Of a stretch of DNA of 64,000 nt, positions 6,797 to 57,650 are shown piece after piece. The notes beneath the pieces are model-generated. The model did not search any database and was not told the origin of the DNA. It worked only from the letters and a program-made list of their open reading frames with translations. The translations under genes and the position numbers were made by a program. The stretch lies in contig NC_086108.1 in assembly GCF_963921235.1 (NCBI RefSeq), positions 46,936,001 to 47,000,000 on the forward strand, read 5' to 3'. How positions within the stretch are numbered: position 1 is the first letter of the stretch; each line of letters starts with the position of its first letter. The DNA comes from Mobula hypostoma. Taxonomy: Eukaryota.

Positions 6797-7243
6797 AAAC
6801 AAGCAACACACATAGAAGTTGCTGGTGAACGCAGCAGGCCAGGCAGCATCTCTAGGAAGAGGTACAGTCGACATTTCGGGCCGAGACACTTCGTCAGGGC
6901 TAACTGAAAGAAGAGCTAGTAAGAGATTTGAAAGGGGGAGGGGGAGATCCGAAATGATAGGAGAAGACAGGAGGACGAGGGATGGAGCCAAGAGCTGGAC
7001 AGTTGATTGGCAAGGAGGATATCAAAGGATCATGGGACAGGAGGCCCAGGGAGAAAGAAAAGGGGGAGGGGGGAAAAAACCCAGAGGATGGGCAAGGGGT
7101 ATAGTGAGAGGGTCAGAGGGAGAAAAAGGAGAGAAAGAAAAAGAATGTGTGTATATAAATAAATAACGGATGGGGTATGAGGGGGAGGTGGGGTATTAGC
7201 GGAAGTTTGAGAAGTCAATGTTCATGCCATCAGGTTGGAGGCT
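6797..7243 (-). mobile_element. Penelope-like element 3' end: GIY-YIG C-terminus, 3' UTR and hammerhead-bearing pLTR
   Basis: Minus strand at 7243-7196 reads SLQPDGMNIDFSNFR*, a typical PLE endonuclease C-terminus; pyrimidine-rich UTR; hammerhead motif at 6901-6866. Confidence 0.8.
6866..6901 (-). ncRNA. Minimal type I hammerhead ribozyme motif (slightly decayed)
   Basis: AGCC-CTGACGA-A-GTGT-CTCG-GCCC-GAAA-TGTC-GACT: CUGANGA and GAAA core boxes, stem II and GUC site present. Confidence 0.7.
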
Positions 7244-7734
7244 GTACACAGCGTTTAATTTTGTCCTCACAAAGCATTGGTATAAACAAATCCAGGGGTA
7301 GGATTTGGGCATTTACTTAAGAAAGCAATGGAAACAGACTGATAATTACCTCTCAACTGCTTCTGCAACACATGAAAGTACTTCCTCATTTAATGAAGTG
7401 ACTGACTGGGCAGTTCCTCCTCCCTGATTCATGAAAAACAGCATCACCACTATGTCTCAGAACACTCTGGGCTCACATGAGATATCAACGATCCAAGACT
7501 TGTGCAATACAGGAAAATGTGCATGTTAACTTCCTTTACACTCTCCTCACTCTTGCAATTTTATAACTGCTCATCTGCTGGGTCTCATGCTTTACTTATG
7601 AAGCAGAAATAGCAATTAGCTTAAAACAGTTTCCTCCAGAAGCTTTCATTAACTCCTACAGTCTTCCTGCTTCATTGTGAAGGTATATCTTCTACAACTG
7701 TTGAATCTCTGCTGGAAGGAAAATAGAGCTAAAA

Positions 7735-8422
7735 ATAGAAAGATAGAAAACCTACAGCACAATACAGGCCCTTCGGCCCACAATGCTGTGCCGAACATAT
7801 ACTTACATTAGAAATTACCTAGGGTTACCCATAGCCCTCTATTTTCTAAGCTTCATGTACCTATCCATGCACTCACCACTCTCACCGTAAAAAACTGACC
7901 CCTGACATCTCCTCTGTATCTACTTCCAAGCACCTTAAAACTGTGCCCTCTAGTGTTAGCCATTTCAGCCCTGGGAAAAAGCCTCTGACTATCCACACGA
8001 TCAATGCCTGTCATCATCTTATACACCTCTGTCAGGTCACCTCTCATCCACCGTCTCGCCAAGGAGAAAAGACTAAGTTCATTCAATCTATTTTCATATG
8101 ACATGGTCCCTAATCCAGGCAACATCTTTGTAAATCTCCTCTGCACCCTTTCTATAGTTTCCACATCCTTCCTGTAGTGAGGTGACCAGAAATGAGCACA
8201 GTACTCCAAGTAGGGTCTGACCAGGGTCCTATACAGCTGTAACAGTTGAAGGCCAATGCACCATATGCCTTCTTAACCACAGAGTCAACCTGCACAGCAG
8301 CTTTGAGTGTTCTATGGACTCGGACCCCAAGATCCCTCTGATCCTCCAGATTGCCAAGAGTCTTACCATTAATACTATATTCTGTCATCATATTTGACCT
8401 ACCAAAATGAACCACCTCACAC
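7735..8422 (-). mobile_element. CR1 LINE 3' fragment
   Basis: ORFs 7853-8209 and 8152-8529 give LEYCAHFWSPHYRKDV..ERVQRRFT and CEVVHFGR; (CTATCTTT)-type tail at ~7735. Confidence 0.9.
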
Positions 8423-8999
8423 ATAACTATTAAAAAATTAATGTAACTTTCAAATGATTTGGAATCAGTCAAGTGGCTAAAACAAAGTCTACACGCTACC
8501 CTCCCCTCAACGAACTGAAGTTTCACCAAAATTCAAGATGTACTGTTAGAGGCGGTCATCAACCTCAGTCATCCAATATCATCAGTATATTAAAAGCTCA
8601 ACAGCCACATGGAAGGATAGTCATTAGGACCTCCTGACAAACAGATGCCCAATGACACACCAGAATTCACAGATCATATTTTGCCTGACGACTCTCCACC
8701 AACGCCGATACATATTGAAACAGTCACCTCAGCATTTTCTAGTGAACACCAGTCCAGAGTATTGTTTTGTTTTAACCAATCACTCTTACCGCAATGGGAT
8801 AAAACAATCGTTATGAATGGCCATTAACGACACATACTGGACTACATACATTAACTTAGGTCTTGGCAGCTTTTCCAGATAAATATAAAACTGCTGGAAC
8901 CTTGTAAACTTGGTGACAATAGATTCAGTGTCTGATCAAAAGTCATCGATTTAGTTCCACCGCTCTCGCCCTTCAAGCTACCCGGCTAAAGCAAAAATT

Positions 9000-10270
9000 A
9001 AAAAACTGTTGGAGTAACTCGTGGGCGGGCGGCCGGCCGGCGAGCGGGGTTGGGGGAGAAGATAAGATCAGGCAACATTTGTAGAGGAAAATGAATGGTA
9101 GAGTTTCCATACTACTTGACCAAAGGAGCAATCTCCAGCCTTTTTTTTAAATTATAGAATCGAACAACGCGACCTTCATCGTTTCCTTCTGACATTAAAC
9201 GGAATGAATACAGCCGAACACGAGGGAGGATGAACTCACCATTACTGACCGATCGGGCGCACTCCGGCCCAGGTACCTCTGAAGATCTCATCTCATCCTC
9301 ATCCAAAGACTTAGCAGACACACGGCGGCCTCGCAGCGTCATTGTTGCCCCACTCGCCACCAGCTTCCTGTCGAAAGTGGGAATAAAAAACACGTAGAAT
9401 AACCGAGAGCAATGAATTGGAGGCCAGACAACTGAGGTCAACACTGCAGCTGAAATAAGCCTACACCGAGCCACTTCAAATCAAAACTTTTTGTTTTCAC
9501 CGTCAGACAAGTTAGTTAAGGATGTTCCCTAGAACATTATGTCTAATCCAAAACAAGTAACACGACATTAAATACTAAGATTTCGAAAATTTAAACTGGT
9601 CAAGGGTCAGGTTTTAAAAGAAGTTCGGTAAGTCAGACGACTCAATAGGGCATTATTTGAGACGGAGATTGGTAAAGAGGGGAGAAATGCGACTTATGAG
9701 CAGCTACTGGGCCAGGTTTCCGTCGTCAGGCCATTTTCCCTACCTACGAGGATCTGGTCCACGGACTCCTGAGATACAGCACGTGATCTGGAGCCAGCGT
9801 ACATTTGGCATTAGGTTGGAAGGAAGAGAACTTGAGGAACAAGAAGGAGATACCTGAAACCGGCAACAATTGCCCGGCTCCTCGTTTGGTCCGATATGAA
9901 ACGTCTGGGTACGAACACCGGCGACGCACAGAGCCCGCTTCGCCGAACGACAGCCGACACGTCGCCTGCTTCCCCCACCAGCAAAGGAGCGGCCGGCCTC
10001 GTCACGCCGCGAGGTCACTCGTGCTGTTCACCGCCGACACCGGTGTAACTGTTCCCGGTCTCGGCGCTCCAAAGGACGTGACTCGCGGCGTTTGTGTGCC
10101 GACGCAGGGACGTACGGCGAGGAGCTGCTGAAACGAGATTGCGCGGGGTGGAGAGAAATCTGTTTTTTTCCTGTGTCCGCTAGTAACCCCGTCCCAGCAA
10201 ATGAGCACCTTTGTTTAATCGCGTCCCTCATTGTCTGTCGGGTGGGAACAGCGCGGAGAAGGATACAAAA
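9000..10270 (-). promoter_or_regulatory. SOAT1: CpG island: promoter and probable non-coding exon 1 of the minus-strand gene (SOAT1)
   Basis: High CpG density not explained by a repeat. Candidate minus-strand donors CAG|GTATCT at 9854/9853 and TAG|GTAGGG at 9744/9743. Confidence 0.6.
9240..9342 (-). CDS. SOAT1: Probable sterol O-acyltransferase 1 (ACAT1), first coding exon (exon spans 9367-9240)
   Basis: MTLRGRRVSAKSLDEDEMRSSEVPGPECARSVSN-G resembles human SOAT1 N-terminus MSLRNR...EEDED...SNG. Acceptor ttttttattcccactttcgacag|G at 9368/9367 and phase-1 donor AATG|GTGAGT at 9240/9239. Divergent from ABL2 as in mammals. Similarity is weak and no downstream exon was identified. Confidence 0.68.
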
Positions 10271-10477
10271 GAATAATTTAAAAACTGGTATTAATGCAAA
10301 GTATCCTATTGGCATAATTATATTTATTTCTAAATAATTTTATATGTTTAAGAGCTGACAGGCTCTCGTATGAAAAAATGCCATTAAATCATTCACTAAA
10401 TTGAATTTTGCCTTGACCCCTGAAAGTTTACTCCATTTTTGTTGTTGTTTGTCTATAAACAACTAGACTTGTTGGGT

Positions 10478-10736
10478 TTTTATTTTATTTAGTGATACAG
10501 CGCGGAGTAGGCCTTTTCACCCCAGCATTCCCCGGCAACCCCGATTTAAACCTAGCTTAATCGTGGGACAATTTACAACGACTCATTAATCTACCCGGTA
10601 AGTCTTTGGGAGGAAACTGGAGCACCCGGAGAAGCCCCACACATATAAATCTCTTAGAGAGGGCGCTGGAATTGAACTCCCGATGCCCCGAGCTGTAATA
10701 GCGCAGCGGCCGGCGCAACGCTACCATAGCGCCCCC
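10478..10736 (-). mobile_element. tRNA-derived V-SINE
   Basis: Head GGGGCGCTATGGTAGCG, B-box GAGTTCAATTCC, V-domain CGGGTGCTCCAGTTTCCTCCCAAAGAC, A-rich tail. Confidence 0.75.
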
Positions 10737-13446: not shown

Positions 13447-13613
13447 TAACTGAAGTGCTCTATCTCAGGTAACATTGTGGTGTATATCCAGCACTATGGC
13501 ATCCTTCCTATTGTGTGGCACGCAATATGCCAGCTAGGCTCTGACCAATGTTTTAAAAAGTTGGAATAGTTTCCCTGCCCTTATATTCAATGCCCTAATT
13601 AATGAAGCAATAA

Positions 13614-13740
13614 AAAGTCCTGATGCAGGGTTTTGATCCAAAATGTAGACAATTCCTTCCTCAACAGATATCAACTTGCTAAATTCTTCCAGCAGGTTGA
13701 TTGTTTCTTCATGTTCCAGCATCTGTAGTCTCTTGTATCC
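13614..13740 (+). mobile_element. Short decayed PLE pLTR copy starting at the hammerhead
   Basis: AGTCCTGATGCAGGGTTTTGATCCAAAATGTAGAC followed by TTCCAGCATCTG tail shared with other copies. Confidence 0.6.
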
Positions 13741-15395
13741 AGAGTTAAGGAAGAGCCGTATCCCACGTCCCTTCTCAACCACGTAATTTGCTGCCATCGA
13801 AGATTTTTGACCTGCAGTGCACATTGTATCTGGTATAAATTGATTGCAGTGATATTACAGTGCGGACTGAGGTAGCAATTAAATGGGCTCCCTAATCCCA
13901 AATAGCATAAAGTTTCTAGAATATCTAAGATGGACTCAATCAGTCAAGCAGAAAGTTTTCCTTCAGATTCGTATGACCTATAGATAGTGGAGAGGCTTTG
14001 CACAGTGAGGTGACTGGCTTGCTGCAGAATGTCCACCTTCTGATCTTTTCTTAATGGCGTAATACTTGGGTGGATGTTTCACTTAAATTTCAAAGCAAAG
14101 GTAATTGGCCAGGATGCACATGGCAGTGACTATGTTGATGCCACTAAACATTAGAATAGAATAGTATGTGATATAGCACTAATCACCCAAGTGTGAATAC
14201 TTTCCTAGTCTTGTCGCATGCAAGCAAAGATTGTGTTGTTATTTGTGCAGAACTGGAAATAGATTAAACACCATACCTCATTAGCAACTATTCTCTATTT
14301 TTGATATGATGTAAGGAAAGGGTTAAGGATATTTGGGTCAAAGGAGAATGCACTCTGGAACTTGTGCTTGAAATAATTAGACTAAAATAACAACCATTTC
14401 CCCCCCAATGGTATATGTAACACCAGCCAGTTGAGCATTCCTTCCCTTATCCCTGATGATTAGTTTTGCTTGGGTTCCTTGACACTACACTCAATTAAGT
14501 GCTGCTTTGAGATTAGCGGCAGTAACTTTTGCCTCACCACTGGAACTTGTCACTTCTCACTGTTTGGAGCAGGTGATAGTAAAGTGAGAAGCCAAGTCTT
14601 TATGGTTGAACCCTAATAAAACATCAGTGAGCTGACCAGTGCAATAAATAGCAGTTCATAGCACTGTTGATGGCAGCTTCCATGAATTTGCTGGCAATTG
14701 GGGAAAAAAACATACTAAGAGCATCAGAAATAGAAACAGGAGCTCCACATTCCAGTCTGTTGCCCGGATTTCTCAACCAAAAATCTCTGTTTCAACTTGG
14801 AGCATATTAAATAATTCAGCTTCCAGCATTGTTAGTGAATTCCAAAGATTCACAACCACCTGAAATAAACGTGCCTCCCTCTTCAAGCCAAATGGGTGAC
14901 CATGTTTTCTGAAATTATATTCTCATGTTGTGGATTCCCTCACAAAGGAAAATAACCTCCTTATACAAGATTCTGAGAAGCCTTGAAATTTCAGGAGATG
15001 GATAGAATGACATCTGGCAGGTTACAGGTCTTGTTTTTTATAGGCAAGATGTGTACTACTTCTGCAGCCTCTTCCACAGGTGGAGCAGGAGTTACCCGAG
15101 AGGAAGGTAGGTATTCTGAGAGTTGCTCTTCTCCTCCCTTCAATTAAGCAGGGTTTTTATGTGCTCCTAGTATATGGCCTCACGGCTCTCAATGCTATCC
15201 TAAATGCTCTTTCTTCATATGAGCGGTCATGGGATATTTTTTTTAAAAATGGTGGGGATGTTGCTTTCCTTCAAGGAAGCTCTGACCACATTCTTAAATC
15301 TCATCTCTGCCTGCCTAGAGATCTCTTCCCACTGAGAGAGCTCGGTACAGAGTGCCTGATTTGTGAGTCAGGTTCCAGGTGACCAAACTATGTGC

Positions 15396-15604
15396 AACAC
15401 ACACAAAATACTGGGGGTACTCAGCAGGTCAGGCAGTATCCATGGAGGAAAATAAATAGTCTATGCTTAGGGTCAGGACACTTGGTCACACCTGAAACAT
15501 CAACGGTTTTATTTCCCTCCACTGATGCTGCCTGACCTGCGAAGTAATCCAACATTTTGCTTGCGTTGCTCAAGAATTTCAGCATCTGCAGAATCACTTG
15601 TGTA
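15396..15604. mobile_element. Palindromic (inverted pLTR) PLE-derived short element, old
   Basis: Arms CAACACACACAAAATACTGG..GCAGGTCAGGCAG and CTGCCTGACCTGC..CAACATTTTG are reverse complements; centre is a decayed hammerhead. Confidence 0.7.
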
Positions 15605-23362: not shown

Positions 23363-23415
<53 letters not shown>

Positions 23416-23792: not shown

Positions 23793-24790
23793 ACACAGCC
23801 CTGCTTGACGCCGTTAGTTACGAGGAAGGGGTCAGAGGTGCAGCTGTTTTTGATGCCCCTGGCCATCATGCTGTTATGGAATGACCTGAAATGCTGATCA
23901 GCCTTGGGCAACAGCCTGACTTGGTAAGGATGAGCCAAAGGCCCGTGCGACTGATGGTATCAAATGCCTTTGTCAGGTTCACAAAGAGGGTGCAGAGATT
24001 CTGGTTCTGTTCCTGACACTTCTCCTGGATCTGTCTGACAGCAAAGATCATGTCACTGTTCCTCTGTTAGATCTGAAACCACGTTGGCTCTCTGAGGCAA
24101 CGTCATCACGGAGGTGGGAAGTAATCCTGTTCGGTGTGATATGGGCCCTGATCTTCCCAGCTATGCTCAGGAGAGATATACCTCTGTGGTTGTCACAGAA
24201 TGCCCCGTCTCCCTTGTTCTTGTACAGCTGGATGATGTTTGCATCCCTGAAGTCCTGTGGTACACAGGCTTTCTCCCAACACTGCTGCATGAGCTCTGTC
24301 AGCCTCTGAAGAAGGGTTTTACCACTATCCTTGAAGACTTCTGGTGGGATCTCATACAGGCCAGGGGTCTTACCTAGCTGCATCTGGTTGACTGCCTTCC
24401 AAGCTTCTACTAATGTGGGAGGATCATCAAGGGCCTCCAAGACTGGGTGTTGGGGCATGTCTTCTATGGCCTGGTTGTCTGTCTGGGATGGCCTGTTCAG
24501 CAGCTGGTTGAATTGGTCTGCCTGGTGTTGGACAATGTCACCTTTGTCAGTGATGAGCACACCATCCAAGGAGCAGACTGGTGTTGTGATGTTGGACGAA
24601 GGACCGTACACTGCCTCGGGACCATGAGAAAACTTCTTTGCGTTGTTCTGGTCAGCATAGTACTGAAGTTCTATGAAGAATAGAATCAATGAGAAACACA
24701 ACAAAGTCTGGCAAGCATCCAAGGTTCCAGAAAAGACCAAATACCCAAATAGTAAAAAAAGTAACCAAATAAAACAGAACATGAGCCATG

Positions 24791-25041
24791 GAGCCCCCAA
24801 GAGTGAACAGGTAGCCTGCGGAGTCCCCGAGAGCGAGTCCGCGGGCCGTGGAGTCCCCAAGAATGAGACCATAGGCCGCGGAGTCCCCGAGAGTGAGCCC
24901 GCGGGCCGCGGAGTCCTCGAGAATGAGACCATAGGCCGCGGAATCCCCGAGAGCGAGCCCGCGGGCCGCGGAGTCCCCGAGAGCGAGCCCGCGGGCCGCG
25001 GAGTCCCCGAGAGTGAGACCACGGGCCGTGGAGTCCCCGAG
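24791..25041 (+). repeat. 30-bp CpG-rich minisatellite, 8 full units plus a partial
   Basis: GAGTCCCCGAGAGCGAGCCCGCGGGCCGCG at exact 30-nt period from 24791; cut by the Gypsy LTR at 25042. Confidence 0.95.
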
Positions 25042-28000
25042 TGTTGTAATGTGAGCATTATTAAAAGTAAGTTAATACTAATTAGGATAATGGGGGGTTT
25101 TACTTCCATCCTTTTTTACTTCCGGTGTGCTTTGTATATGGTGTGCCTGCCATGCCCTACGGGTTGTGAAAGCCTCTTTATATACCTAACGGTTTTGAAG
25201 CTCGAGATAATGTTGTTTATTTGGCATGAAGTTGTTGAGTGTTCCTTTTTCAAAGTAGAATTTACCATATATTTTTGGCGACGAGGTGAACTGGTTTTGT
25301 GGACGTGTTGGCATGTTTCGAACAGGAGCAGCAGTGCCAGTAAGGGGCCTCACGTTCAGATGGCTACGTTTGGGACTATTGTTGAATTTGTGGAGTTAAC
25401 GGAGGACTGGCTGGAGTATGAGGAAAGGTTGGGACACTTTTTCTGTGCTAATGGAATTACGGAGGAGGCTAAGAAGCACTCTATTCTCCTGAGTGTGTGT
25501 GGGGCAAAGACTTACAAGCTAATAAGGAATTTAGCCACACCGCAGAAACCGGGGGAAGTTCCATATGACGAACTGGTCAAGCTCGTGAGGAACCACTACA
25601 ATCCGAAACCTTCTGTGATAGTCCAAGGGTGTAAGTTTCACAGCAGTTTCAGGAAGCCAGGTCAGTCTGTGGCTAATTTTGTGGCCGAGCTTCGGCAACT
25701 GTCGGAGCATTGAGATTTCGGAGAGGTGTTGGAAGACATGCTCTGTGATCAATTGGTATGCGGCATTAATAATGCCGACATACAACGCCGCCTGTTAGGG
25801 GAAACCCCACTGCTGACTTTCAAGAAAGCCTTAGAGATTGCCCAAGGCATGGAGATGGCTGCTAATAATATTAAGGATATCGGGTCGCAGTCAGCGGCAG
25901 TGCACCAAGTCAGGAGGGAGACTGGTAAACAGGCAAAGCGGGTGAAATGTTTCCGATTTGTACCATGCAAATGATTGCAAATTTAAAGACTCTGTCTGCC
26001 ATGCTTGTAGCAAAAAGGGACATTTAGCTAGAAAATGCAGAAGTTCAAAGGGTAAAGTTAAGCCTGGGCAGGGGAAAGCCCAACAGGCTCAGGCAGCCAC
26101 ACACCATCTAGAAGATGCAGATGAAGAGGCAGCCTGTGCCTACAACATGTTTGCAGTGGAAACGGATGAGGAACCACCTGAACCATATTATGCCACAGTC
26201 ACTGTCAGGGGAAAGGACGTTAAATTTGAGATTGATTCAGGGGCTACTGCATCAGTCATTAGTGAGGAGACCTACAGGAGGACATAGGGGTCCAACCTGC
26301 CTCCCATTAGACCGTCAAAGCTCAAACTTAGGACCTATACGGGGCAGCCCGTACTTCATTTAGGGGCGTTATATGTGGACATTTCAGCCAGGCGTCAGAA
26401 GGCTGAAGCCAGGCTAGTGATAGCTCAGGGCAGGGGGCCCAGTCTTTTGGGTCGTGATTGGCTTTGCAAAATCCGGCTAAACTGGCATGAAATTAAGTAT
26501 GTACGCACGACAGAGGTCATTCTGCAGCGGTATAGTGACGTTTTCAGGGACGAGCTAGGAACACTGAAGGGCGTGACAGTGAAACTTCATGTCAACCCTG
26601 AGGCTACACCATGTGTTTTTAAGCCCAAGTCGGTGCCCTATGCCATGAAAGGCAAAGTCAAGGAGGAGCTGGAACGTTTACAGAGGCTGGGCATTATTGA
26701 GCCCGTCCAGTTTTCAAGGTGGGCGGCTCCCATTGTTTCAGTTTTGAAGGCAGACAAAACGGTGAGGATATGTGGGAATTATAAGCTTACGGTGAATCAG
26801 GCCTCTAGGCCGGAGGAGTACCCATTGCCTCGGGTGGATGACCTGTTTGCGACCCTGTCGGGGGTAAGCTGTTCACAAAGCTGGACATGAGCCACACCTA
26901 CCAACAGCTGCTGCTCGATGAGGATTCAAAGGAGTACGTCACAATTAATACACACAAGGGATTATTCAAGTACAATCGCCTGGTGTTTGGAGTGGCATCC
27001 AGCCCTGCCATTTTCCAAAGGACAATGGACACTTTGCTGCAGGGGATTCTGCACGTAGCAGTGTACCTTGATGATAGTTTGATCATGGGGGCTACAAATG
27101 CGGAGCATCTGGCTAACTTAGAACGGGTGCTGAAGAGGCTCTCAGACGCAGGGCTACGGTTCAAACATGGAAAATCTGTGTTCCTGGCATCGAGTGTGAC
27201 TTACCTGGGACACAAGATCACAGCTGAGGGGCTTTGCCCCGTGGAGGACAAAGTGAGAGCTATTAAGGAAGCCCCAAGCCCCAAGACCGTCACGGAACTC
27301 AGATCATTTTTGGGCATAGTGAATTATTATGGCAAGTCTCTTCCTGACCTTTCAAGGGTTCTGACCGCACTCTATAAGCTGCTTCACAATGACACTAAGT
27401 GGCAATGGGGTGAAGAGCAGGAGAAAGCTTTCAAGGAAGTGAAAGAACTCCTCCACTCAGTGAAGCTGCTTGTTCACTATGACCCAGACAAGGAGATCAC
27501 CCTGCCATGCGATGCCTCGCCCTATGGAGTCGGGGCAGTTCTCTCACATGTAATGGAGGACCGTTCAGAGAAGCCTATTGGTTTTGCTTCACGTACCCTG
27601 ACAGTTGCAGAGAGGAGATATTCACAGCTAGACAAAGAAGGTCTGGCCATTGTTTTTGCGGTCAAACGCTTTCATCAGTACCTTTATGGAAGTGTATTTA
27701 CAATTTATACAGACCATAACCCACTGATGAGCCTGTTCAGTGAGACTAGAGGCATCCCACCGCTAGCCTCAGCCAGGATACAGCATTGGGCTCTTACTTT
27801 GTCAGCCTACTAGTACACTATAGTGTACAGAGCGGGTGGGAATAATGCAAGTGCTGATGCACTGAGTCGACTACCTTTACCTGAGACACCTGTTACCACA
27901 CATGTGCCTCCAGAGACTGTGTTTACATTGGAGAGGTTCTTTCACTTCCTTAAAAGCTTTCTCCTGCTCTTCACCCCATTGCCACTTAGTGTCATTGTGA

Positions 28001-29827
28001 AGCAGCTTATAGAGTGCGGTCAGAACCCTTGAAAGGTCAGGAAGAGTCACACAGAGACACCTGTAAAGGCGACCCAGATCAAGCAGTGGACAGAGAGGGA
28101 CCCAGTCCTGTCCCACGTCAAGACTTTTCTTTTACAAGGTTGGCCCAGAGTCGTGGAAAGAGAGGAACTGAGACCTTATGCCAAACGCAAGACAGAGCTC
28201 AGTCTGCAGGATGGCTGCATTTTCTGGGGGGCAAGGGTCATCGTGCCTCCCCCTGGCCGTTCACAGATTATGGAGGAAATTCATGAGGCTCACCCAGGAG
28301 TGTCTCGAATGAAAAGCCTTGCAAGATCCTACGTTTGGTGGCCAGGAATGGATCAGGATCTGGAGAACAAGGTAAAATCATGCATGCAGTGTCAGGCTAA
28401 TCAGAAAATGCCACCACCAGCTCCTTTGCATCCATGGGAGTGGCCAGACCACCCCTGGTCTAGGCTACATTTGGACTTTGCTGGCCCTTTTATGCGGCAG
28501 ATGTTTCTTGTAACGGTGGATGCACATTCTAAATGGATCGAAGCTCACATCATGAGCAACGTCACAGCCCCCTCAACCATAGACAAACTCAGGCAAGTGT
28601 TTGCAGTCCATGGGCTGCCTGACACTCTGGTCACAGAAAATGGCCCGACGTTCACTAGTGAACTCTTCAGTGAGTTCATGCGGCAGAATGGCATTCGTCA
28701 CATTCGGACGGCCCCTTTCCACCCAGCCTCTGATGGTTTGGCTGAGCGGGCTGTTCAGACAGTGAAGGAAGGCCTGAAGCGGATGCCAGGGGACTCTCTT
28801 AGCATTCGGCTTTCACGTTTCCTGTTTAAATACCACCTCACACCACAGACTACGACTGCCTGCACTCCAGCAGAGATGCTGATGGGGCGTAGGCCCAAGT
28901 CAAGATTGGACCTGCTGCGCCCGGACATGAAGGCGAAAGTGGAGAGAAAGCAGGAAAAGCAGAAGGAGGGACATGATCAACATGCGCGAGAGAGGCAGTT
29001 AAAACCGGATGACAATGTCTATGTGAGAAACAATCAGCAATGGCTGCCTGGGGTTATTCTTAAGCAGAGTGGTCCCATCTCCTATGTTGTTAAGCTGACT
29101 GATGGGCGTGTTTTCCGCAGACATCAGGACCATGTGCGTCTGCATCATGATACCGGCTCAGAGGCAGACAGTTCCATGGAGTTTCCATTTGTGAGACAGA
29201 CTATGGTGGAAGTATGTCCACCAGTGACTTTGCCAGAAGGCGAGACGCTGGCAGAGGGGTCGAGGTCCCCTGAGGAGGATGGACATTCTCACGCAGACAC
29301 TCAGACCCCTCTCATGCCCCCAAAACCAGATCCACCCAAAACATCCTCACCAGCAGTTCCTGCTGGGTCACTGGTGGTAGTGCGCAGATCACAGAGCACT
29401 CATAAACCTCCTGACAGACTGTATCTTTGACGGGACAGTTCTTTTTTTGTTGTTGTTAGATTGAATGTTGAATCTGTTATGTTTTCCAGATGTTTTGTAT
29501 TGATAAACTGTTGCTGAGATACTAGTATAAGCTTATAGGGGTACGCAAGTTAATAACACCACTGTTTTTATTTAGTAGTTTTTTACATTTGGGGATGTTG
29601 GATTTTAAAGGGGGAGAAGAGTTGTAACGTGAGCATTATTAAAAGTAAGTTAATACTAATTAGGATAATGGGGGTTTTTACTTCCAGTGTGCCTTTGTAT
29701 ATAGTGTGCCTGCCATGCCGTACGTGAAAGCCTCTGTATATACGTAACGGTTTTGAAGTTCGAGATAAAGTTGTTTCTTTGGCATGAAGTTGTCGAATGT
29801 GCCTTTTTCAAAGCAGAAGTTACTACA
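25042..29827 (+). mobile_element. Gypsy/Ty3 LTR retrotransposon, Mag-clade (K02A2.6-like), full length but disrupted
   Basis: LTRs 25042-25269 and 29620-29827; PBS TGGCGACGAGG 25276-25286 (complementary to tRNA-Ser(GCU) 3' end); PPT AAAGGGGGAGAAG 29607-29619; PR-RT-RH-IN order. Confidence 0.96.
25360..29430 (+). pseudogene. gag-pol of the Gypsy element (stops, frameshifts, inverted insertion)
   Basis: Gag MATFG..DWLEYEERL; CCHC CHACSKKGHLARKC; protease IDSGA; RT YLDD; RNase H CDASPYGVGAVL; integrase H-H-C-C, LHLDFAGP, GLAERAVQT. Confidence 0.93.
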
Positions 29828-33100: not shown

Positions 33101-36100
33101 GTCCAAGGGAACACCCTGTCAGGTCCCGGGGATTTATCCACTTTAATTTTCCTCAAGACAGCAAGGACCTCCTCCTTTTCGATCTGTACAGTTTCCATGA
33201 TCTCACTACTTGTTTCCCTTAATTCCACAGACTTCATGCCAGTTTCCTTAGTAAACACAGATGCAAAAAACCTATTTAAGATCTCCCTCATTTCCTGTGG
33301 TTCCTCACATAGCCAACCACTCTGATCTGCAAGAGGACCAATTTTATCCCTTACAATCCTTTTGCTCTTAATATATGTGTAAAAGCTCTTTGGATTATCC
33401 TTCACTTTGACTGCCAAGGCAACCTCATGTCTTCTTTTAGCCCTCCTGATTTCTTTTTTAAGTATTTTCTTGCACTTCTTATACTCCTCAAGCACCTTAT
33501 TTACTCCCTGCTTCCTATACATGTCATACAACTCCCTCTTCTTCTTTATCAGAGTTGCAATATCCCTTGAGAACCAAGGTTCCTATTCACTTTGCCTTTA
33601 ATCCTGACAGGAACATACAAATTCTGCACTCTCAAAATTTCTCCTTTGAAGGCTTCCCACCTACTGATCACATCCTTGCCAGAGGACAACCTGTCCCAAT
33701 CCACGCTTTTTAGATCCTTTCTCATTTCTTCAAATTTGGCCTTCTTCCAGTTAAGAACCTCAACCCTAGGACCAGATCTACCCTTGTCCATGATCAAGTT
33801 GAAACTAATGGTGTTATGATCACTGGAACCAAAGTGCTCCCCTACACAGACTTCTGTCACTTGTCCTAACTTGTTTCCTAATAGGAGATCCAATGTTGCA
33901 TCCCCTCTAGTTGGTCCCTCTATATATTGATTTAGAAAACTTTCCTGAATACATTTTACAAACTCTAAACCATCTAGACCCCTAACAGTATGGGAGACCC
34001 AATCAATATATGGAAAATTAAAATCCCCTACCACCACAACTTTATGTTTCCTGCAGTTGCCTGCTATCTCTCTGCAGATTTGCTCTTCCAATTCTCGTTG
34101 ACTATTGGGTGGTCTGTAATACAATCCCACTAATGTGGCCATACCTTTCCTGTTTCTCAGCTCCACCCACAAGGACTCAGTAGACAAACCCTCTAATCTG
34201 TCCTGCCTGAGCACTGCTGTAGTATTTTCCCTAACAAGCAATGCTACTCCCCCACCTTTCATTCCTCTGCTCTATCACATCTGAAACAGCGGAACCCTGG
34301 AATATTAAGCTGCCAGTCCTGCCCCTCCTGTAGCCAAGTTTCACTAATTGCTATAACATCATAATTCCACGTGTCAAGCCACGCCCTCAACTCATCCGCC
34401 TTCCCCGCAATACTCCTAGCATTGAAATATATACACCTCAGAAGATTTTTACCACCACTCACAACCTTTCTATTAGCGGATTTGCTTGAACTTTTAACAT
34501 CATTTTTTTTCACCCCAGCCACACTGTCAGCTCTGGCACCCTGGTTCCCATCCCCTGCAAATCTAGTTTAAAGCCTCCCCAATAGCATTAACAAACCTCC
34601 CTGAAAGGATATTGGTCCCCCTGTAGTTCAAGTGTAACCCGTCTCTCTTGTACAGGTCCCACCTGCCCCAGAAGAGGTCCCAATGATCCTGAAATCTGAA
34701 ACCCTGCCCCCTACACCAGTTCCTCAGCCACTTGTTCATCCTCCAGAGCATCCTATTCCTACCCTCACTGGCACCTAACACAGGTAGCAATCCTGAGATT
34801 ACCACCCTCGAGGACCTGCTTTTCAACTTCCTACCAAGCTCTCTATACTCACTCTCCAGGACCTCCTCACTCTTCCTTGCTATGTCATTGGTACCGATGT
34901 GCACCATGAGATCTGGCTGATCACCCTTCCACTTCAGAATGTCATGCAAGCGATCAGAAACATCCTTGACCCTGGCACCCGGGAGGCAACAAACCATCCT
35001 GGATTCTCTGTCACGACCACAGAACCTCCTATCTGCACCTCTAACTATCGAGTCCCCTATCACTACCGCTCTCCTCTTTTCCCCCCTCCCTTCTGCACTG
35101 CAGAGCCAGACTCAGTGCCAGAGATCCGGCTACTGCAGCTTGTCCCAGGTAAGTCATCCCCCGCAACAGTATCCAATGCGGTATACTTGTTTTTGAGGGG
35201 AATGGCCACAGAGGAACCCTGCTCTGCCTGCCCCTTCCTCTTCCCTCGCCTGACAGTGACCCAATTTCCTGTCCTCTGCTCCTTTGGCGTAACTACCTCC
35301 CTGTAGCTACTATCTATAATCTCCTCATTCTCCCGAATGATCCGCAGGTCATCCCGCTCCTGCTCCAGTTCCCTAACGCGGTTTGTTAGGAGTTTGTAAT
35401 ATATATTAGTGATCTGGGTGATGGGGTGGTAAATTAGATTAGTAAGCATGCAGATGATACTAAGATAGCTGGTGTTGTGGATGATGAGGTAGGTTTTCAA
35501 AACTTGCAGAGAGATTTAGGACAGTTAGAAGAGTGGGCTGAAAGATGGCAGATGGAGTTTAATGCCAAAAAATGTGAGGTGCTACATTTTGGTAGAACTA
35601 ATCAAAATAGGACATACATGGTAAATGGTAGGGCATTGAAGAATGCAGTAGAACAGAGGGATCTACGAATAATGGTGCATAGTTCCCTGAAGATGGAATC
35701 TCATGTGGATAGGGTGGTGAAGAAAGCTTTTGGTTTGCTGGCCTTTATTAATCAGAGCATTGAGTATAGGAGTTGGGATGTAATGTTGAATTTGTATAAG
35801 GCATTGGTAAGGCCAAATCTGGAGTATTCTGTACAGTTCTGGTCACCAAATTCTAGGAAAGATGTCAATAAAATTGAGAGAGTACAGAGGAGGTTTACTA
35901 AAATGTTGCCTGGGTTTCATCTCCTAAGTTACAGAGAAAGGTTGAACAAGTTAGGTCTTTATTCTTTGGAGCGCAGAAGCTTGAGGGGGGACTTGATAGA
36001 GGTGTTTAAAATTATGAGGGGGATTGATAGAGTTGACGTGGTTAGACTTTTTCCATTGAGAGTGGGGAAGATTCAAACAAGAGGACATGGGTTGAGAATT

Positions 36101-36371
36101 AGAGGACAAAAGTTTAGGGGTAACTTGAGGGGGAACTTCTTTACTCAGAGAGTGGTCGCTATGTGGAATGAGCTTCCAGCAGAAGTGGTTGAGGCAGGTT
36201 CGATGTTATCGTTTAAAGTTAAATTGGATAGATATATGGACAGGAAAGGAATGGAGGGTTATGGCCTGAGTGCAGGTCGGTGGGACTAGGATAGGGTAAG
36301 AGTTCGGCATGGACTAGAAGGGCTGAGATGGCCTGTTTCCATGCTGTAATTATTATATGGTTATATGGTTA
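30112..36371 (+). mobile_element. CR1 LINE A (30112-31562 plus 35392-36371), host of a nested antisense CR1
   Basis: ORF2 pieces 30118-31155, 31083-31580 (to GVPQGSVLGPMLF) and 35477-36289; tail (TTATATGG)n at ~36352-36371. Confidence 0.95.
31563..35391 (-). mobile_element. CR1 LINE B, near full length (ORF1 esterase plus ORF2 APE-RT), frameshifted
   Basis: ORF1 SGNH esterase IGDSIVR..HIGTND..DGLHLN (34563-35063); APE YFNARS..ISETWL, GDFN, SDH; RT KFADD; tail (CTATGGTT)n at 31563-31582; GTTT duplicated at both junctions. Confidence 0.96.
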
Positions 36372-37084
36372 AAGGGAAATTACAGGCTGCGGATTGCAGC
36401 AATCATAGTTCAGAAGAAGTATATCTCATAGAATATCTAGAAGTTTTGTGAGCTGCCCGCGAAACACCGCTGTGTGTTTCCAGTTCCATCTTGAATATTT
36501 CCTGTCCATGTACCTGTCCAAATGTCTCTAAATACTGTAATAATACCCTTGTTTACCACTTCCTCTGGTAGTTTGTTGGCAGTCAAAGTATTTGTTTTGC
36601 GGGATGGTCAGAGCTTTTGTCCTTTCCACATGATAGGATTTACATCTGAAGCTCTGCTTCAGTGCCTCACACAAAGTACAGGAGATCCGTGCAAGATGAG
36701 TACAGACAATTCCATTGGCCATTGGTCAGCACAGTGGCTGGCCGCAATACCTGGTCAATGTTATCTTTGTAATTTTAATGCCACATGTGCACTGTATACA
36801 AAGTTATCTATCTTTGACATTTGGCTTCCTACACAAGATTCTTTAGGCTCTTTTTAAATACTGTGAATACTTGCAACCGCAATGAAGATCCTTGCAGGAG
36901 TATTTACCCGCTACCAATTTGAACATCTGCTCTGTCAATCTGTGATTTAGGTTCAATTCCATAACTTCAGTTAACAAAGGAACTTTTCTGAATGTGATCT
37001 GGAATATTAAAAAAAATGTTTAAAAAGTCACTTCAAAAAATTTAAACATATTCATCCGATCCCTATCCTTTAGAACTAATAAAT

Positions 37085-38019
37085 GGAAGCGATTCTGCAG
37101 AAGCTGGAAATCCGGTGTAACACATGCAGAATGCACTCACAAATATCTACAGAGAGTACTCGAACTGACTGCACCACCACCTGGTATGGGGAGGGTGGCC
37201 ACTGCACTGAATTGAAAGAAGTTGCAGAAAGTTGTAAAATTAGTCAGCTCCATCATGGGCACTAACCTCTTCAGCATCCAAGACATCTTCAAGGAGCGAT
37301 GCCACAAAAATATGGCATCCACCATTAAGGACTCCCGTCAACCAGGACATGTCAGCTTCTCATTGCCACCATTTGGGAGGAGGTGCTGGAGCCTGAAGGC
37401 ACACATTCACCAATTCAGGAACAGCTTCTTCTGCTCCGCCATCCAACTTCTAAATGGACTTGAACTACCTCACTACTCCTTTTTCTCTTTTTGCACTACT
37501 TACTTAACTTTTAAAATACATATATATATTTAAAAATATATATACACATTTATTACTGTAATTTACAGTTTTGTTATTATGTATTGCAATATACTGCTGC
37601 CGCACAACAACAAATTTCATGACATTTGTCAGTGATATTAAGCCTGATTCTGATTCTGAATTCAGCGGGTCAGGCAGCATCTATGAAAGGGAATAAATAG
37701 TTGGCGTTTTGGGCCGAGACCCTTCATACTGTATCTTTGCTCCTTCTTCTTCAGCCCTTTACCTTTTCCACCTATCACCTCCCGGCTTCAGGTTCATCTC
37801 CCCCCCCCCCCACAGCCCCCTCCCACCCACACACCCACCTGGCTTCACCTATCATCTTATATATTGTACTCCTCCCCCTCCCCCTACCTTCTTGTTCTTG
37901 TTTCTTTCCCCTTCTTTTCCAGGCTTGATGAAGGGTCTCAGCCAGAAGCATTGATTGTTTATTCCCATCCGTAGATGCTGCCTGACCTGCTGAGCTCCTC
38001 CAACATTGTGTATGTGTTA
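37085..38019. mobile_element. PLE 3' end with inverted pLTR, split by a Rex1 insertion
   Basis: Minus arm 37085-37135 plus 37660-37728; plus-strand pyrimidine-rich UTR and pLTR 37730-38019 with TTGATGAAGGGTCTCAGCCAGAAG. Confidence 0.72.
37136..37658 (+). mobile_element. Rex1/Babar LINE 3' fragment
   Basis: LQKVVKL.SSIMGT.L.SIQDIFKERC..FRNSFF.SAI.LLN; tail (TGATTC)n. Confidence 0.85.
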
Positions 38020-39754: not shown

Positions 39755-40668
39755 TCAGATTATGAGAACACCCAGTCCCCGTTTATTGTCATTTAGAAAT
39801 GCATGCATTAAGAAATGATACAATGTTCCTCCAGAGTGATATCACACAAAAAAAACAGGACAAACCAAAGACTAACACTGACAAAAACAACAGGAATTCT
39901 GCAGATGCTGGAAATTCAAGCAACACACATCAAAGTTGCTGGTGAACGCAGCAGGCCAAGCAGCATCTCTAGGAAGAGGTGCAGTTGACGTTTCAGGCCG
40001 AGACCCTTTGTCAGGATGAAGGGTCTCGGCCTGAACCGTCGACTGCACCTCTTCCTACAGATGCTGCTTGGCCTGCTGCGTTCACCAGCAACTTTGATGT
40101 GTGTTACTAACACTGACAAGGCCACATAATTAGAACATATAGTTACAGCAGTGCAAAGCAATACCATAATTTGATAAAGAGCAGACCATGGGCACTGTAA
40201 AAAAAAAGTCCCAAAGTTCCGATTGACTCCCGATAGTCCTGATAGCAGGCGGCAGAAGGGAGAAACTCTCCCTGCCATAAACCTCCAGGCGCCAACAACT
40301 GCCGATGCATTGGAAGCACCCGACCACGGCCAACTCTGAGTCCATCCAAAAACTTCGAGCCTCCGACCAGCCTCTCCGATACAGCCTCCCGAGCACCATC
40401 CTCTGCCGAGTGCTTCGACCTCTCCACGGCCGCCAAGCAACAAGCAAAGCCGAGTACTCGGGACCCTCCCCTCCGGAGATTCTGGATCACATAGTAGCAG
40501 CGGCAGCAAAGAAGGCATTCAGAAGTTTCTCCAGATGTTCCTCCGTGCTCTCACGTCTGTCTCCACCAGATCAGGATTGTGCACGGTACCCTACTTGACC
40601 GATAACAGATATCATTCACCGGAGTGGCTGCTGCGCGCTGCGTCACGCCACCATCTTCGCCTCCTCCT
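39755..40668 (-). mobile_element. Non-autonomous LINE-derived element (GC-rich head, Rex1-like tail), host of a PLE palindrome
   Basis: Minus-strand head GGAGGAGGCGAAGATGGTGGCG; tail GACAATAAAC..AATCTGAA; no ORF. Confidence 0.55.
39885..40105. mobile_element. Young palindromic PLE-derived element with 14-bp TSD
   Basis: 87-bp arms 39922-40008 and 40019-40105 with 3 mismatches by eye; TSD ACTAACACTGACAA at 39871-39884 and 40106-40119; hammerhead motifs at the centre on both strands. Confidence 0.88.
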
Positions 40669-55197: not shown

Positions 55198-55870
55198 GTT
55201 GTTATGGCCAGGAGTGGTAGTAGGGACAAGCTCTCACTACCTATTAAGTGCTCCCAATCGCATGCAACTCAAATAGCCTCTGGGAACCAAGTCCAGCTCC
55301 TGGCCTTCATGTGTGGATTAGTTACTAAGCCCAGTGGAACTGTTTCTATTGACAGGAGAAGGGGCAAAGGTGGGCTACTGGCACCTTAAAACCAGTCACT
55401 TCAGGCAGATAACACACACAAAATGCTGGTGGAACAGAGCAGACCAGGCAGCATCCATAGGAAGAAGCACAGTTGACGTTTCAGGCCAAGACCCTTCATC
55501 AGGCAGATGGGGCTTGTCAGTCATGGTTGGCAGCTCATTTTGGAGAAGGAAAACTCTGATCTCAAACCTCTACTGACTTGCAGCTATACCCATTCATGAG
55601 GAAGGCTTCAGGAGTAAAGGAGGGAAAAATCCAGAGCTGGAGTCCCTAAGGCAATGTTATGTTGAGTTCAATGCCATCTGGGAACTCCTGCGATGCTGTT
55701 GGTGCCAAACTGTAACGGTGTCTGTAGTTCCTTTGGATTCATCAGATGCATGGTGAGGGGGAGCTTGCTACATGGGCAACAGCTTGTTCTCCATGTTGTG
55801 TTGTCCTGGCTTGCGTATCTAGACAGCTAGGACACAACATCCTTGGTTGATTCTGTTGGATAGAAGCCTC
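55198..55870 (+). mobile_element. Probable RTE-related non-autonomous element, host of a PLE fragment
   Basis: Continuous across the insert once the 10-bp duplication is removed; family tentative. Confidence 0.45.
55411..55502 (-). ncRNA. Short PLE pLTR insertion with intact hammerhead core
   Basis: CTGATGA-A-GGGT-CTTG-GCCT-GAAACGTC at 55502-55475; TSD TCAGGCAGAT at 55401-55410 and 55499-55508; stem I 5' arm absent. Confidence 0.75.
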
Positions 55871-57424
55871 AAAGTTTGAAGAATTGGCAGAAATGTATAT
55901 GAATTTATATACATAATTCTTGGAAGTTTAGGTATCATCATAAACTATCACTTGTTATAGGTCCAGAAGCTCATCTGGGAGATAATAATCTATCATGTCT
56001 ATTTTGATCCATTTGGATTTAGATAAACCAAGAGATTCAAAAATATAGGGCAGTCACAGCTTTCGTAGTACATGAAAGCTATAAAATGCACACTTTGACA
56101 TGAAGGGAATCAGGAAAACTATTGATGCTGACAAAGCATTAACTTTAAATCTGCAAAAGAAAATACTTATAAAGTGAAAGGACAAGACAACTGAACACAA
56201 GGGAAGGAGAAAATATGGATTATTTTCACTTGGTTGTCTTTCACAGTTCAACCATTTCTCAAAGCATGTATAGACAAATCAAGTACTTGCCTTCCAAATG
56301 AGTTTTACATTTGCATTAAAGATAATCTGACATGCTTAGTTTACTTGAATTCCAGCAAAACAATTGTGAATAATATCAACAGTCCTTCTGAGATTAAAAT
56401 TTACATTTCAAAATGATTGTTGTGGAAGCCCATAATGGCACAAAGTTGTCCGACCAGAAAGATCTCAAGGGCACGACCGCTCCCTCATTCATCAATCCTT
56501 ATCCATCCCAATAAACCTCCCACCCAATCTTCCTATCTGCCTGTTTTGTCCCATTGGGAAATGTAGAACAATATTGTTATATCTCAGTTGATATCAGTCA
56601 CTACTTAATCACAAATCCAACTGAAACTTATATTGCAGATTTACTTTTTACCTTCTCTTTACTGATTTATATTATTTAATAAATACGACCAAGTTTCAGG
56701 GACTTTCTTCCCAGTTGAAACAATACTTTATCCTAGAAATAATAATGGTACTACTTGTTTTTCATTGCACTGTTCTGATTGTTAGAATGTATCTGAATCT
56801 CACGGGACTGGAACTGGCCACATCATAAAAATGAAGCCTGAGTAGATTATGATGTGTAGGTCAGCATCCTGTTGAAAAAAAAACTATCAAAAAAGCCAAG
56901 AAGGAAACCATTTAATCCATTATATCTATGATGGTTCTTGGAAATAATTAACCAATTATTGCCATTTCCCTGCTGTTTCCTCAACAGTTCTTTCATCATA
57001 AATATCTGAGCAATTTTTTGAATGTTCTCAATGAATCGTTTCCACCATTCTTTCAGGCTACATTTCAGATTACTTCCATCATTTTAAAGACAGCAAATAT
57101 ACCCCTTTAAGCTTTTCCCTGAAATACATTTCAATCTCTTGCATTGATCTGAAACCTTCCAATACCAAATAGCTTGATTTTGAGCCATTCAAGTTCCATG
57201 TCAATAGAAATATCTCATGAAGCTCCTGATAAATTATTATAAGGCTTTCCGTATTGCCTCCTGGTTGTCCAAGAGGCTGTTGAAATCTACATTGTTACAT
57301 TCACACTACCCGAATACCAGACCAACAAAGGAGCCTAACCATATCTCCTTAAACTCAGTGGTTTTACTGTTTCCAAATCCCATACATTCAACATCCCAGA
57401 AAGTACCATTGATCAAACATCTGC

Positions 57425-57650
57425 AAGGAACAAAACAGAAAATGCTGAAACCTATCAGCAGGTTGGGCAGCATCCATTGAAAGAATCTTCCTAGAGATGC
57501 TGCCTGCCTGCTGCATTCACCAGCAACTTTGATGTGTGTTGCTTGAATTTCCAGCATCTGCAGATTTCCTCGTGTTTGTGTTTTTAAATCCATTGAAAGA
57601 AATTTAGTTAATATTTTGGACATTTCAGATCAAAGGCTCTTCATCAGAAG
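57425..57650. mobile_element. Old minus-strand PLE pLTR copy with a young plus-strand PLE tail (57486-57587) inserted
   Basis: TSD ATCCATTGAAAGAA at 57472-57485 and 57588-57601; old copy ends in CTGATGAAGAGCCTTTGATCTGAAATGTC (minus, ~57648-57619). Confidence 0.8.

What the first reader, a model, noticed from the sequence alone, without database searches (positions are those of the whole stretch)
6797..57650. Dispersed family of short Penelope-derived elements carrying a minimal, dimer-type hammerhead ribozyme
Seen: at least seven related copies (6797-7243, 13614-13740, 15396-15604, 37085-38019, 39885-40105, 55411-55502, 57425-57650) share consensus AGTC-CTGAYGA-A-GGGTCTCGGCCC-GAAACGTC-GACT. 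That is stem I, the CUGANGA box, stem II, the GAAA box, a palindromic ACGU in place of stem III, and a GUC site. The 6797 copy is attached to a GIY-YIG C-terminus, which ties the family to PLEs. Established: PLE pLTRs carry minimal type I hammerheads thought to cleave as dimers. Inference: this is a high-copy, long-lived, mostly non-coding ribozyme-retroelement system (retrozyme-like) in this lineage. The general phenomenon is known; I cannot tell whether this family has been described. Most individual copies here have core or stem mutations.
Basis: partly seen in the sequence, partly recalled or inferred. Interest (0 to 1): 0.75.

Follow-up and report, generated by a model that had tools for sequence, protein, structure and literature searches.

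The report
Penelope retroelement stubs with decayed hammerheads
The scattered short repeats are broken-off ends of a Penelope-type jumping gene that carry the small hammerhead self-cutting RNA motif already known from such elements; they are real and very abundant, but every copy here is damaged and the kind is ordinary.

Summary
In detail: 11 related arms in 8 insertions, with the motif found 5 times against 0.04 expected by chance. The column majority is a minimal type I hammerhead with a palindromic ACGU in place of helix III. Public contigs laid on the 6797 copy continue its frame into a Neptune-type GIY-YIG end. The insertions show the published Penelope-like (PLE) signatures: head-to-head pairs, a tail on one arm only (3 of 3 pairs), and exact 10-14 bp target-site duplications (3 of 8). 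None of the 11 arms keeps both core and stems. Damage is concentrated at CpG sites (24 of 70 against 20 of 201), and the core is no better kept than its neighbours. No arm starts at the predicted cut and there is no tandem array. These are dead 5'-truncated PLE ends, not a self-propagating retrozyme. The kind was described in 2014 (PMC4209133); I did not find this family in print. Cleavage is untested. New member of a known kind; interest 0.15.

The parts
6797..7243 (-). Arm A: longest copy; ORF end, pyrimidine-rich 3' UTR, hammerhead motif, body, no tail
   Evidence: depth falls to flank level on both sides; no exact TSD
7196..7243 (-). Last 15 codons and stop of a Neptune-type GIY-YIG endonuclease
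   Evidence: frame continued by loose ends in 516, 69 and 73 contigs of X1, X9, X17; spacing matches Neptune rows of Fig. S2 in PMC8557442
6902..7195 (-). 3' UTR, 80% pyrimidine on the element strand
6866..6901 (-). Minimal hammerhead motif of arm A; all 12 core positions kept, one mismatch in each stem, U-G in helix III; predicted cut between 6870 and 6869
13616..13744 (+). Arm B: solo, tailed, divergent subfamily; two core changes
   Evidence: possible 9-bp TSD with one mismatch at 13599 and 13745
15396..15488 (-). Arm C1: tail-less arm of a head-to-head pair; four core defects
15491..15604 (+). Arm C2: tailed arm; truncated inside stem II, no CUGA box
37076..37140 (-). 3' end and tail of arm D1, displaced by a LINE remnant (bounds approximate)
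37141..37659 (+). LINE-like remnant inserted into arm D1 (bounds approximate; class judged from recall, no Pfam match)
37657..37731 (-). Arm D1: 5' part, truncated inside the CUGA box
37732..38019 (+). Arm D2: about 190 nt of pyrimidine-rich 3' UTR, mutated hammerhead, body, no tail
   Evidence: possible 9-bp TSD with one mismatch for the whole pair at 37067 and 38021
39885..40015 (-). Arm E1: tailed arm of a young head-to-head pair; G8 changed, stem I 5' strand mostly lost
40015..40105 (+). Arm E2: tail-less arm, truncated inside the CUGA box
39871..39884 (.). Left copy of an exact 14-bp TSD around pair E (right copy 40106-40119)
55411..55503 (-). Arm F: solo, tail-less; all 12 core positions kept but stem I 5' strand lost; exact 10-bp TSD (55401-55410, 55499-55508) overlapping the element's first 5 nt
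57486..57587 (+). Arm G: young tailed stub starting about 9 nt downstream of the predicted cut, so without hammerhead; exact 14-bp TSD (57472-57485, 57588-57601)
57425..57650 (-). Arm H: older arm of another subfamily, CUGA box starting at 57647, split by arm G; stem I not recognisable

Best explanation
These are 5'-truncated insertions of several subfamilies of an endonuclease-bearing, Neptune-type Penelope-like retrotransposon. The terminal repeat (pLTR) of the master elements carries a minimal type I hammerhead. Inferred mechanism, by analogy with the Anolis Poseidon element: the element's protein nicks DNA and starts reverse transcription inside its RNA, about 65-110 nt downstream of the hammerhead, at either of two sites about 30-40 nt apart, which gives tailed and tail-less ends. 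It copies back through the uncut hammerhead and usually stops early. Often a second short copy is laid down in the opposite direction in the same event. So the hammerhead is a passenger in nearly every stub because it lies next to the start of reverse transcription. After insertion its four CpG sites decay and the copy dies. In master transcripts the motif probably can cleave, weakly and only as a dimer or with help from the element's protein. Shown: anatomy, TSDs, tails, decay pattern, continuation into the ORF. Inferred: clade, reverse transcription start sites, ribozyme activity.
For: ORF link: loose ends behind 7243 in 516 (X1), 69 (X9) and 73 (X17) contigs continue the frame by ten codons (translated by hand). 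The Glu-to-Asn spacing of 17 residues and 8 identical residues match Neptune-1_Ac without gaps; Poseidon and Nematis rows are shorter and lack the P-x-G-L-N end. Tails: 5 tail matches against 0.14 expected, exactly one per pair in 3 of 3 pairs, as described for PLEs. One event: an exact 14-bp TSD encloses the whole pair E; exact TSDs in 3 of 8 insertions, against 1 of 300 random pairs reaching 10 bp and none reaching 14. Decay: CpG columns changed in 24 of 70 cells (20 are CpG-type transitions), others in 20 of 201, Fisher P=8e-6; core non-CpG 8 of 78 against 12 of 123, P=1. Uncut template: of 11 arms, 10 span the predicted cut site, 1 starts about 9 nt beyond it, none starts on it; the Anolis element also uses uncut RNA. 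Motif: majority architecture matches the published min-HHR, with an extra base before stem II, a G-C closing pair and a palindrome at 15.2-16.2.
Against: No reverse transcriptase or full ORF of this element was seen; the clade rests on 25 residues compared by eye, ten of them from a contig consensus with agreement 0.65-0.66. Pfam gives nothing on the window's 20-residue piece and Rfam no hammerhead. Covariation is weak: score 0.325 against 0.255 +/- 0.043, 28 of 500 shuffles as high, and all six both-side changes come from two unrelated loci, L001 and L002. RNAalifold finds no consensus structure on A1. 5 of 8 insertions have no exact TSD. The 3' stem-loop is not clearly better than shuffles (z -2.0, -1.0, -0.9, -0.3 in the four intact tailed arms). 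The family is laid in two runs guessed to be RNA, which may be DNA or host read-through and shows neither ends nor circles.
Confidence: 0.88

Rival explanations
1. A retrozyme-like non-autonomous family: short units are transcribed, cut by dimeric hammerheads, circularised, and reinserted by the PLE enzyme as units in their own right.
For: Very high abundance: summed depth 0.86-15 million inside against 8-9 in the flanks of run X1, which the tool warns is no copy number. Present in two RNA-guessed runs. Retrozymes are reported from one chondrichthyan and proposed to derive from pLTRs. In arms A and E1 the candidate frame after the conserved ATG: A stays open to its end, E1 meets a stop after 16 codons, which could mark a non-autonomous subfamily.
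Against: No tandem array of the unit in 64 kb. 5' ends vary from 15 codons inside the ORF to beyond the cut, so there is no fixed monomer. Ends follow tail and tail-less positions, not the cut site. Core not better kept than neighbours. One 64-kb window cannot exclude arrays elsewhere.
Confidence: 0.06
2. The motif is a hammerhead-shaped but non-cleaving element even in master copies; it is kept for another job, such as a protein-binding fold, a splice acceptor or a promoter part.
For: Nearest-neighbour energies favour folds that bury the core: the monomer minimum pairs the CUGA box with the helix III strand (-10.1 against -7.9 kcal/mol), and the competent dimer (-14.7) lies far above the best cofold (-28.5). 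Published min-HHRs cleave poorly; 8 of 9 Xenopus dimers did not cleave; hammerhead mutants do not block insertion in vitro. The best-kept columns of A1 lie downstream of the motif.
Against: The whole catalytic core, the extra base, the closing G-C pair and the palindrome are kept in the majority sequence and in two unrelated loci whose stem I differs at three pairs with pairing kept; stem I was not in the search pattern. The Anolis motif cleaves with protein, and a C3G/G8C double change rescues it. Energy models ignore Mg2+ and tertiary contacts. This rival changes the ribozyme step only, not the PLE origin.
Confidence: 0.2
3. The head-to-head pairs come from repeated, targeted insertion of new stubs into old ones, not from single events.
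For: Arm G did insert into the older antisense arm H, with its own 14-bp TSD. PLE endonucleases can cut their own pLTR.
Against: Pair E is enclosed by one exact 14-bp TSD and its arms are 98% alike over the body. Pairs C and D join arms of one subfamily, 76-78% alike, above the 55-71% to other subfamilies in all but one comparison. One tail per pair in 3 of 3.
Confidence: 0.07

Closest known systems
Minimal hammerheads (min-HHR) in pLTRs of metazoan PLEs, including Xena, Poseidon and Neptune of fishes (Cervera and De la Pena 2014, PMC4209133; parts 1-2 of 4 read)
   Same: Type I, no helix III loop, palindrome at 15.2-16.2, extra base between 9 and 10.1, G10.1-C11.1; mostly single dispersed motifs from truncated PLEs; pairs on opposite strands 100-700 bp apart; many variable families per genome.
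   Different: Different host and sequence; stem II is 4 bp here; density (11 arms in 64 kb) is far above the 4,000-9,000 motifs per genome quoted for coelacanth and Xenopus, though those counts are for intact motifs and none here is intact.
Neptune clade of EN+ PLEs (Craig et al. 2021, PMC8557442; passages and supplement parts 1 and 55 seen)
   Same: C-terminal GIY-YIG with E-x3-I-x2-L-x4-P-x-G-L/M-N spacing followed by a stop; heavy 5' truncation; inverted truncated copy at the 5' end; 30-40 bp tail at one end only; hammerhead in the pLTR.
   Different: RT and Zn-finger linker not seen. Insertions here are not in microsatellites, a bias the paper mentions for Neptune. Naiad and Chlamys share the endonuclease motif but carry it N-terminally.
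Anolis Poseidon element PAc (Frangieh et al. 2024, PMC11167929; parts 1-2 of 4 read)
   Same: Two internal reverse transcription starts downstream of the hammerhead explain tailed and tail-less ends; uncut RNA is the template; ORF start lies in the pLTR near the motif.
   Different: Other clade; its ORF starts in stem II, whereas the conserved ATG here lies about 20 nt past the cut; nothing tested biochemically here.
Animal non-LTR retrozymes (PMC7229834, passages; bioRxiv 10.64898/2026.07.22.740005, parts 1-3 of 5)
   Same: Type I hammerhead, pLTR kinship, non-coding units, dispersed monomers occur.
   Different: Defined by head-to-tail tandems with at least two complete hammerheads and by circular RNAs; this window has no tandem, no complete motif, no fixed unit length, and head-to-head pairs instead.

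Membership tests
PLE min-HHR | Core boxes CUGANGA and GAAA, then NUH, with type I stem order | tested here: met
   Met in the column majority and X1 majority letters; among single arms, 2 of 9 scored keep all 12 core positions
PLE min-HHR | Palindrome at 15.2-16.2 without a helix III loop; extra base after A9; G10.1-C11.1 pair | tested here: met
   A1 columns 26, 27/38 and 42-45; extra A and G10.1 invariant in 8 of 8 arms that reach them
PLE min-HHR | Compensatory changes in stems across families | tested here: inconclusive
   3 of 4 stem I pairs change on both sides, all in L001/L002; stem II changes are one-sided; 28 of 500 shuffles reach the score
PLE min-HHR | Self-cleavage as dimer or with protein | not testable with these tools
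   Only energy estimates; contigs cannot show RNA ends
EN+ Penelope-like element | C-terminal GIY-YIG endonuclease upstream of the pLTR | tested here: met
   Last 15 codons in window plus ten codons from contigs match PLE endonuclease ends by eye; no profile match on 20 residues
EN+ Penelope-like element | Telomerase-like reverse transcriptase in the same ORF | not testable with these tools
   No genome held; the ORF remnant is below the size needed for the protein search; 27 long window frames scanned show only LINE, LTR and DNA transposon domains
EN+ Penelope-like element | Inverted truncated pLTR and a 30-40 bp tail at one end only | tested here: met
   3 of 3 head-to-head pairs have one tailed arm; single TSD around pair E
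Neptune clade | Endonuclease end motif and spacing of Neptune type | tested here: met
   8 of 17 residues identical to Neptune-1_Ac without gaps; Poseidon and Nematis rows differ (by eye)
Neptune clade | CX2-5CxxC linker and RT phylogeny | not testable with these tools
   Region absent from the window
Non-LTR retrozyme | Head-to-tail tandem with two or more complete hammerheads | tested here: not met
   No such array among 7 tandem rows; 0 of 11 arms complete; one window only
Non-LTR retrozyme | Abundant circular or unit-length RNA | tested here: inconclusive
   X9 and X17 are contigs guessed to be RNA; no pile-up of ends; no joint at the cut among the 15 of 58 joints shown
Rfam hammerhead families | Covariance model match | tested here: not met
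   4 matches at E up to 1, all microRNA hairpin models on the palindrome of pair E, all below gathering score

The most novel reading that the evidence does not exclude
In the master element the hammerhead is a doubly switched ribozyme. The monomer is locked by pairing of the CUGA box with the helix III strand and is opened by the element's protein or by a partner copy. A 3' splice site ending on the AG of stem I swaps the stem I strand between spliced and unspliced RNA. With intact copies likely numerous in this genome, dimers between transcripts could cut host RNAs or feed a retrozyme-like pool.
Probability: 0.07. Interest if true: 0.55.

Novelty: new member of a known kind. Interest (0 to 1): 0.15.

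Why it matters
It adds a very dense vertebrate example of a known association and a clean record of how PLE ends are laid down. It does not open a new mechanism. The role of the PLE hammerhead is still open, and a genome with this many insertions would allow a strong test: count 5' junctions against distance from the cut, and compare core with flank between subfamily masters. This window alone points to uncut RNA as the template.

Tried and rejected
Rfam scan: no hammerhead; the microRNA hits only reflect the palindrome of pair E. A fuzzy-regex scan timed out with no output and was replaced. No whole genome is held, so there is no genome-wide count or consensus. Motif scans: 0 in viral contigs, 0 then 2 loci in metagenomes, 0 in prokaryote genomes. 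L001 and L002 share no blastn match with the window and serve only as outside examples; they were fetched with a pattern that fixes the core and much of stem II, so only their stem I is unbiased. The ORF remnant is too short for a homologue search, which leaves the RT unseen; Pfam finds nothing on it. Raw reads of X21 laid 0 reads, no test. I first read the 414 contigs that go loose behind 6898 as a truncation hot spot, then dropped it: their consensus continues stem I and agreement is 0.38, so they are probably sister subfamilies. RNAalifold on A1 gave no pairs. Alignment A2 was out of register for two rows and was replaced by A3, in which row C1 is shifted at its 5' end and truncated arms carry flank letters in stem I. 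Depth ratios were not used as copy numbers. Not in print, as far as searched: (listings), term searches in 10.1101/2025.06.08.657570 (0 for Penelope, PLE, hammerhead), PMC8557442 (0 for Chondrichthyes) and 2 supplementary files of PMC4209133 (0 for shark names; its file 1 could not be searched). Repbase and Dfam could not be searched, and the supplements of the 2026 preprint, which lists retrozyme families of one chondrichthyan, were not seen; the family may be named there.
Full report
Setting. The window is repeat-rich animal DNA, 35-50% GC, with LINE reverse transcriptases, an LTR-type pol and Tc1-type remnants among 27 long frames scanned. No genome is held. Earlier notes of this scan call the genome a ray or cartilaginous fish; that agrees with my recall of such repeats, but I did not test it.

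Observation. blastn and nhmmer with two window copies find the family at all seven stated places. I count 11 arms in 8 insertions: A 6797-7243 (-), B 13616-13744 (+), pair C 15396-15604, pair D about 37076-38019, pair E 39885-40105, F 55411-55503 (-), G 57486-57587 (+) and H 57425-57650 (-). The core-plus-stem-II pattern matches 5 times against 0.04 expected. The majority of alignment A1 (10 of the 11 arms) is a 36-nt minimal type I hammerhead: 4-bp stem I, CUGANGA, an extra A, 4-bp stem II, GAAA, the ACGU palindrome, and the cut after GUC. Run X1 gives the same majority letters at the three positions where arm A departs (96%, 97%, 79%), with C or U at N7 (24% U) and 30% CpG decay at C11.1 (40 of 82 rows shown). 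Rfam has no hammerhead match at E up to 1, which is expected for mutated minimal motifs but is no support. Body identities separate about five subfamilies: A, E1, E2 and G at 93-98%; C and D at 65-78%; F; B; and H, by eye.

Link to Penelope-like elements. Arm A begins with 15 codons and a stop, then 294 nt that are 80% pyrimidine, then the motif. Contigs that run past 7243 (516 in X1, 69 in X9, 73 in X17; agreement 0.65-0.66) continue the frame by ten codons, translated by hand. The second Glu of that piece lies 16 residues before the Asn of the window's P-x-G-M-N. In Fig. S2 of PMC8557442 this spacing is that of Neptune (and of Naiad and Chlamys, whose endonuclease is N-terminal); 8 of 17 residues equal Neptune-1_Ac without gaps, while Poseidon and Nematis rows are shorter. 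Because a stop follows, the endonuclease is C-terminal, so Neptune is the best call. It rests on 25 residues; Pfam sees nothing in the window's 20, and no RT was seen.

Insertion anatomy. The tail motif occurs 5 times against 0.14 expected: in B, C2, D1, E1 and G. Each of the 3 head-to-head pairs has one tailed and one tail-less arm. Contigs loose before 6800 supply the same tail to arm A's family (392 in X1). Exact TSDs flank 3 of 8 insertions: 14 bp around the whole pair E, 10 bp around F, 14 bp around G. B and D have 9-bp candidates with one mismatch; A, C and H have none that I trust. Of 300 random pairs, 1 reached 10 bp or more and none 14. Inverted truncated copies, a 30-40 bp tail at one end and TSDs of 8-10 bp are described for PLEs. 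In the Anolis Poseidon element the tail is the stretch between two internal reverse transcription starts, uncut RNA is the main template, and the hammerhead cleaves only with protein. G inserted into the older antisense arm H, and a LINE-like remnant splits D1.

State of the motifs. Of 9 arms scored, 2 (A, F) keep all 12 core positions. A has a mismatch in each stem and F has lost the 5' strand of stem I. G lacks the motif; H keeps the boxes but no stem I. So 0 of 11 are complete. Changes fall on CpG columns in 24 of 70 cells against 20 of 201 elsewhere (P=8e-6). Without CpG columns the core is changed in 8 of 78 cells and the rest in 12 of 123 (P=1) (5' junctions judged by eye, arms of different subfamilies scored against one majority). 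This is neutral decay of methylated DNA. For masters the evidence is thin: on A3, 3 of 4 stem I pairs change on both sides, all in the unrelated loci L001 and L002; stem II shows only one-sided changes; 28 of 500 shuffles reach the score, while slid controls fall far lower. RNAalifold finds no structure.

How it most likely works. Shown: stubs of varying 5' length share 3' ends with or without tail, carry TSDs and lead into a GIY-YIG end. Inferred: reverse transcription starts shortly downstream of the hammerhead and copies back through it, so almost any stub contains part of the motif. Ten of 11 arms span the predicted cut and none starts on it, which fits an uncut (or religated) template. 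Energy estimates for the majority sequence favour closed folds: monomer -10.1 kcal/mol with the CUGA box paired to the helix III strand, against -7.9 for the open form; competent dimer -14.7 against -28.5 for the best cofold. That fits the low activity published for min-HHRs and the need for protein, but the model omits Mg2+ and tertiary contacts. I put PLE stubs with a passenger min-HHR at 0.88. That the motif never cleaves even in masters I put at 0.2; this concerns only the ribozyme step.

Retrozyme reading. Non-LTR retrozymes are tandem repeats with at least two complete hammerheads, and the described ones give circular RNAs. The window has no such array and no fixed unit. The family is laid in two runs guessed to be RNA, but contigs show no ends or strand. 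I put this at 0.06; one window cannot exclude arrays elsewhere, and the 2026 preprint reports retrozymes in one chondrichthyan.

Abundance. 8 insertions in 64 kb. In X1, 106,606 contigs were laid on 561 bases, with summed depth 0.86-15 million inside against 8-9 in the flanks; this shows a very large family but is no copy number.

What is known. Cervera and De la Pena 2014 describe this architecture in Xena, Poseidon and Neptune elements of fishes, as mostly single dispersed motifs and as opposite-strand pairs. My searches (term searches) found no description of this family, but Repbase, Dfam, file 1 of the 2014 supplement and the preprint's supplements were not seen. A look-up of this scan's notes for this genome gave 30 fits for 'hammerhead', 8 shown, of which 6 reach the same reading; these are unchecked AI notes, not support. 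One of them reports a single insertion that starts exactly at the cut; I found none among 11 arms. Papers seen: PMC4209133 parts 1-2 of 4 and a supplement search; the 2026 preprint parts 1-3 of 5; PMC11167929 parts 1-2 of 4; PMC8557442 passages and supplement parts 1 and 55; PMC3846280 and PMC7229834 passages; 10.1101/2025.06.08.657570 term search only.

Verdict. Observation confirmed; interpretation partly supported; new member of a known kind; interest 0.15.

Noticed in passing
window 6900-6935 (-) and 37891-37922 (+): A pyrimidine tract followed by YAG ends on the AG of stem I in both long arms, like a 3' splice site; the D. virilis Penelope intron ends at helix I. No matching joint among those shown.
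   Followed up: partly
A1 columns 66-69, e.g. window 6848-6851 (-): A conserved GATG about 20 nt past the predicted cut opens a frame starting Met-Leu-Pro in 6 of 10 arms; candidate ORF start inside the pLTR. Arm E1 has an in-frame stop after 16 codons.
   Followed up: partly
window 55499-55508 and 40015-40016: 5' junctions use microhomology: 5 nt shared between TSD and element start in F, 1-2 nt between the arms of E.
   Followed up: partly
window 57425-57650: A young stub inserted antisense into an older arm of another subfamily, with a 14-bp TSD; possible self-targeting.
   Followed up: partly
L001 1090-1200: An unrelated min-HHR family in a metagenome contig also sits head to head with a second copy.
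   Followed up: no
window 25150-29820: LTR retrotransposon with RT, RNase H and integrase domains and 113-nt direct repeats at 25153 and 29711; a 118-nt inverted repeat at 27338 and 27929 lies inside it.
   Followed up: no
window 30115-36290: Nested LINE copies in opposite orientation; one has a GDSL/SGNH esterase frame at 34563-35111 upstream of its second ORF.
   Followed up: no
window 24785-25041: 30-bp minisatellite, about 7.5 copies, just upstream of the LTR element.
   Followed up: no
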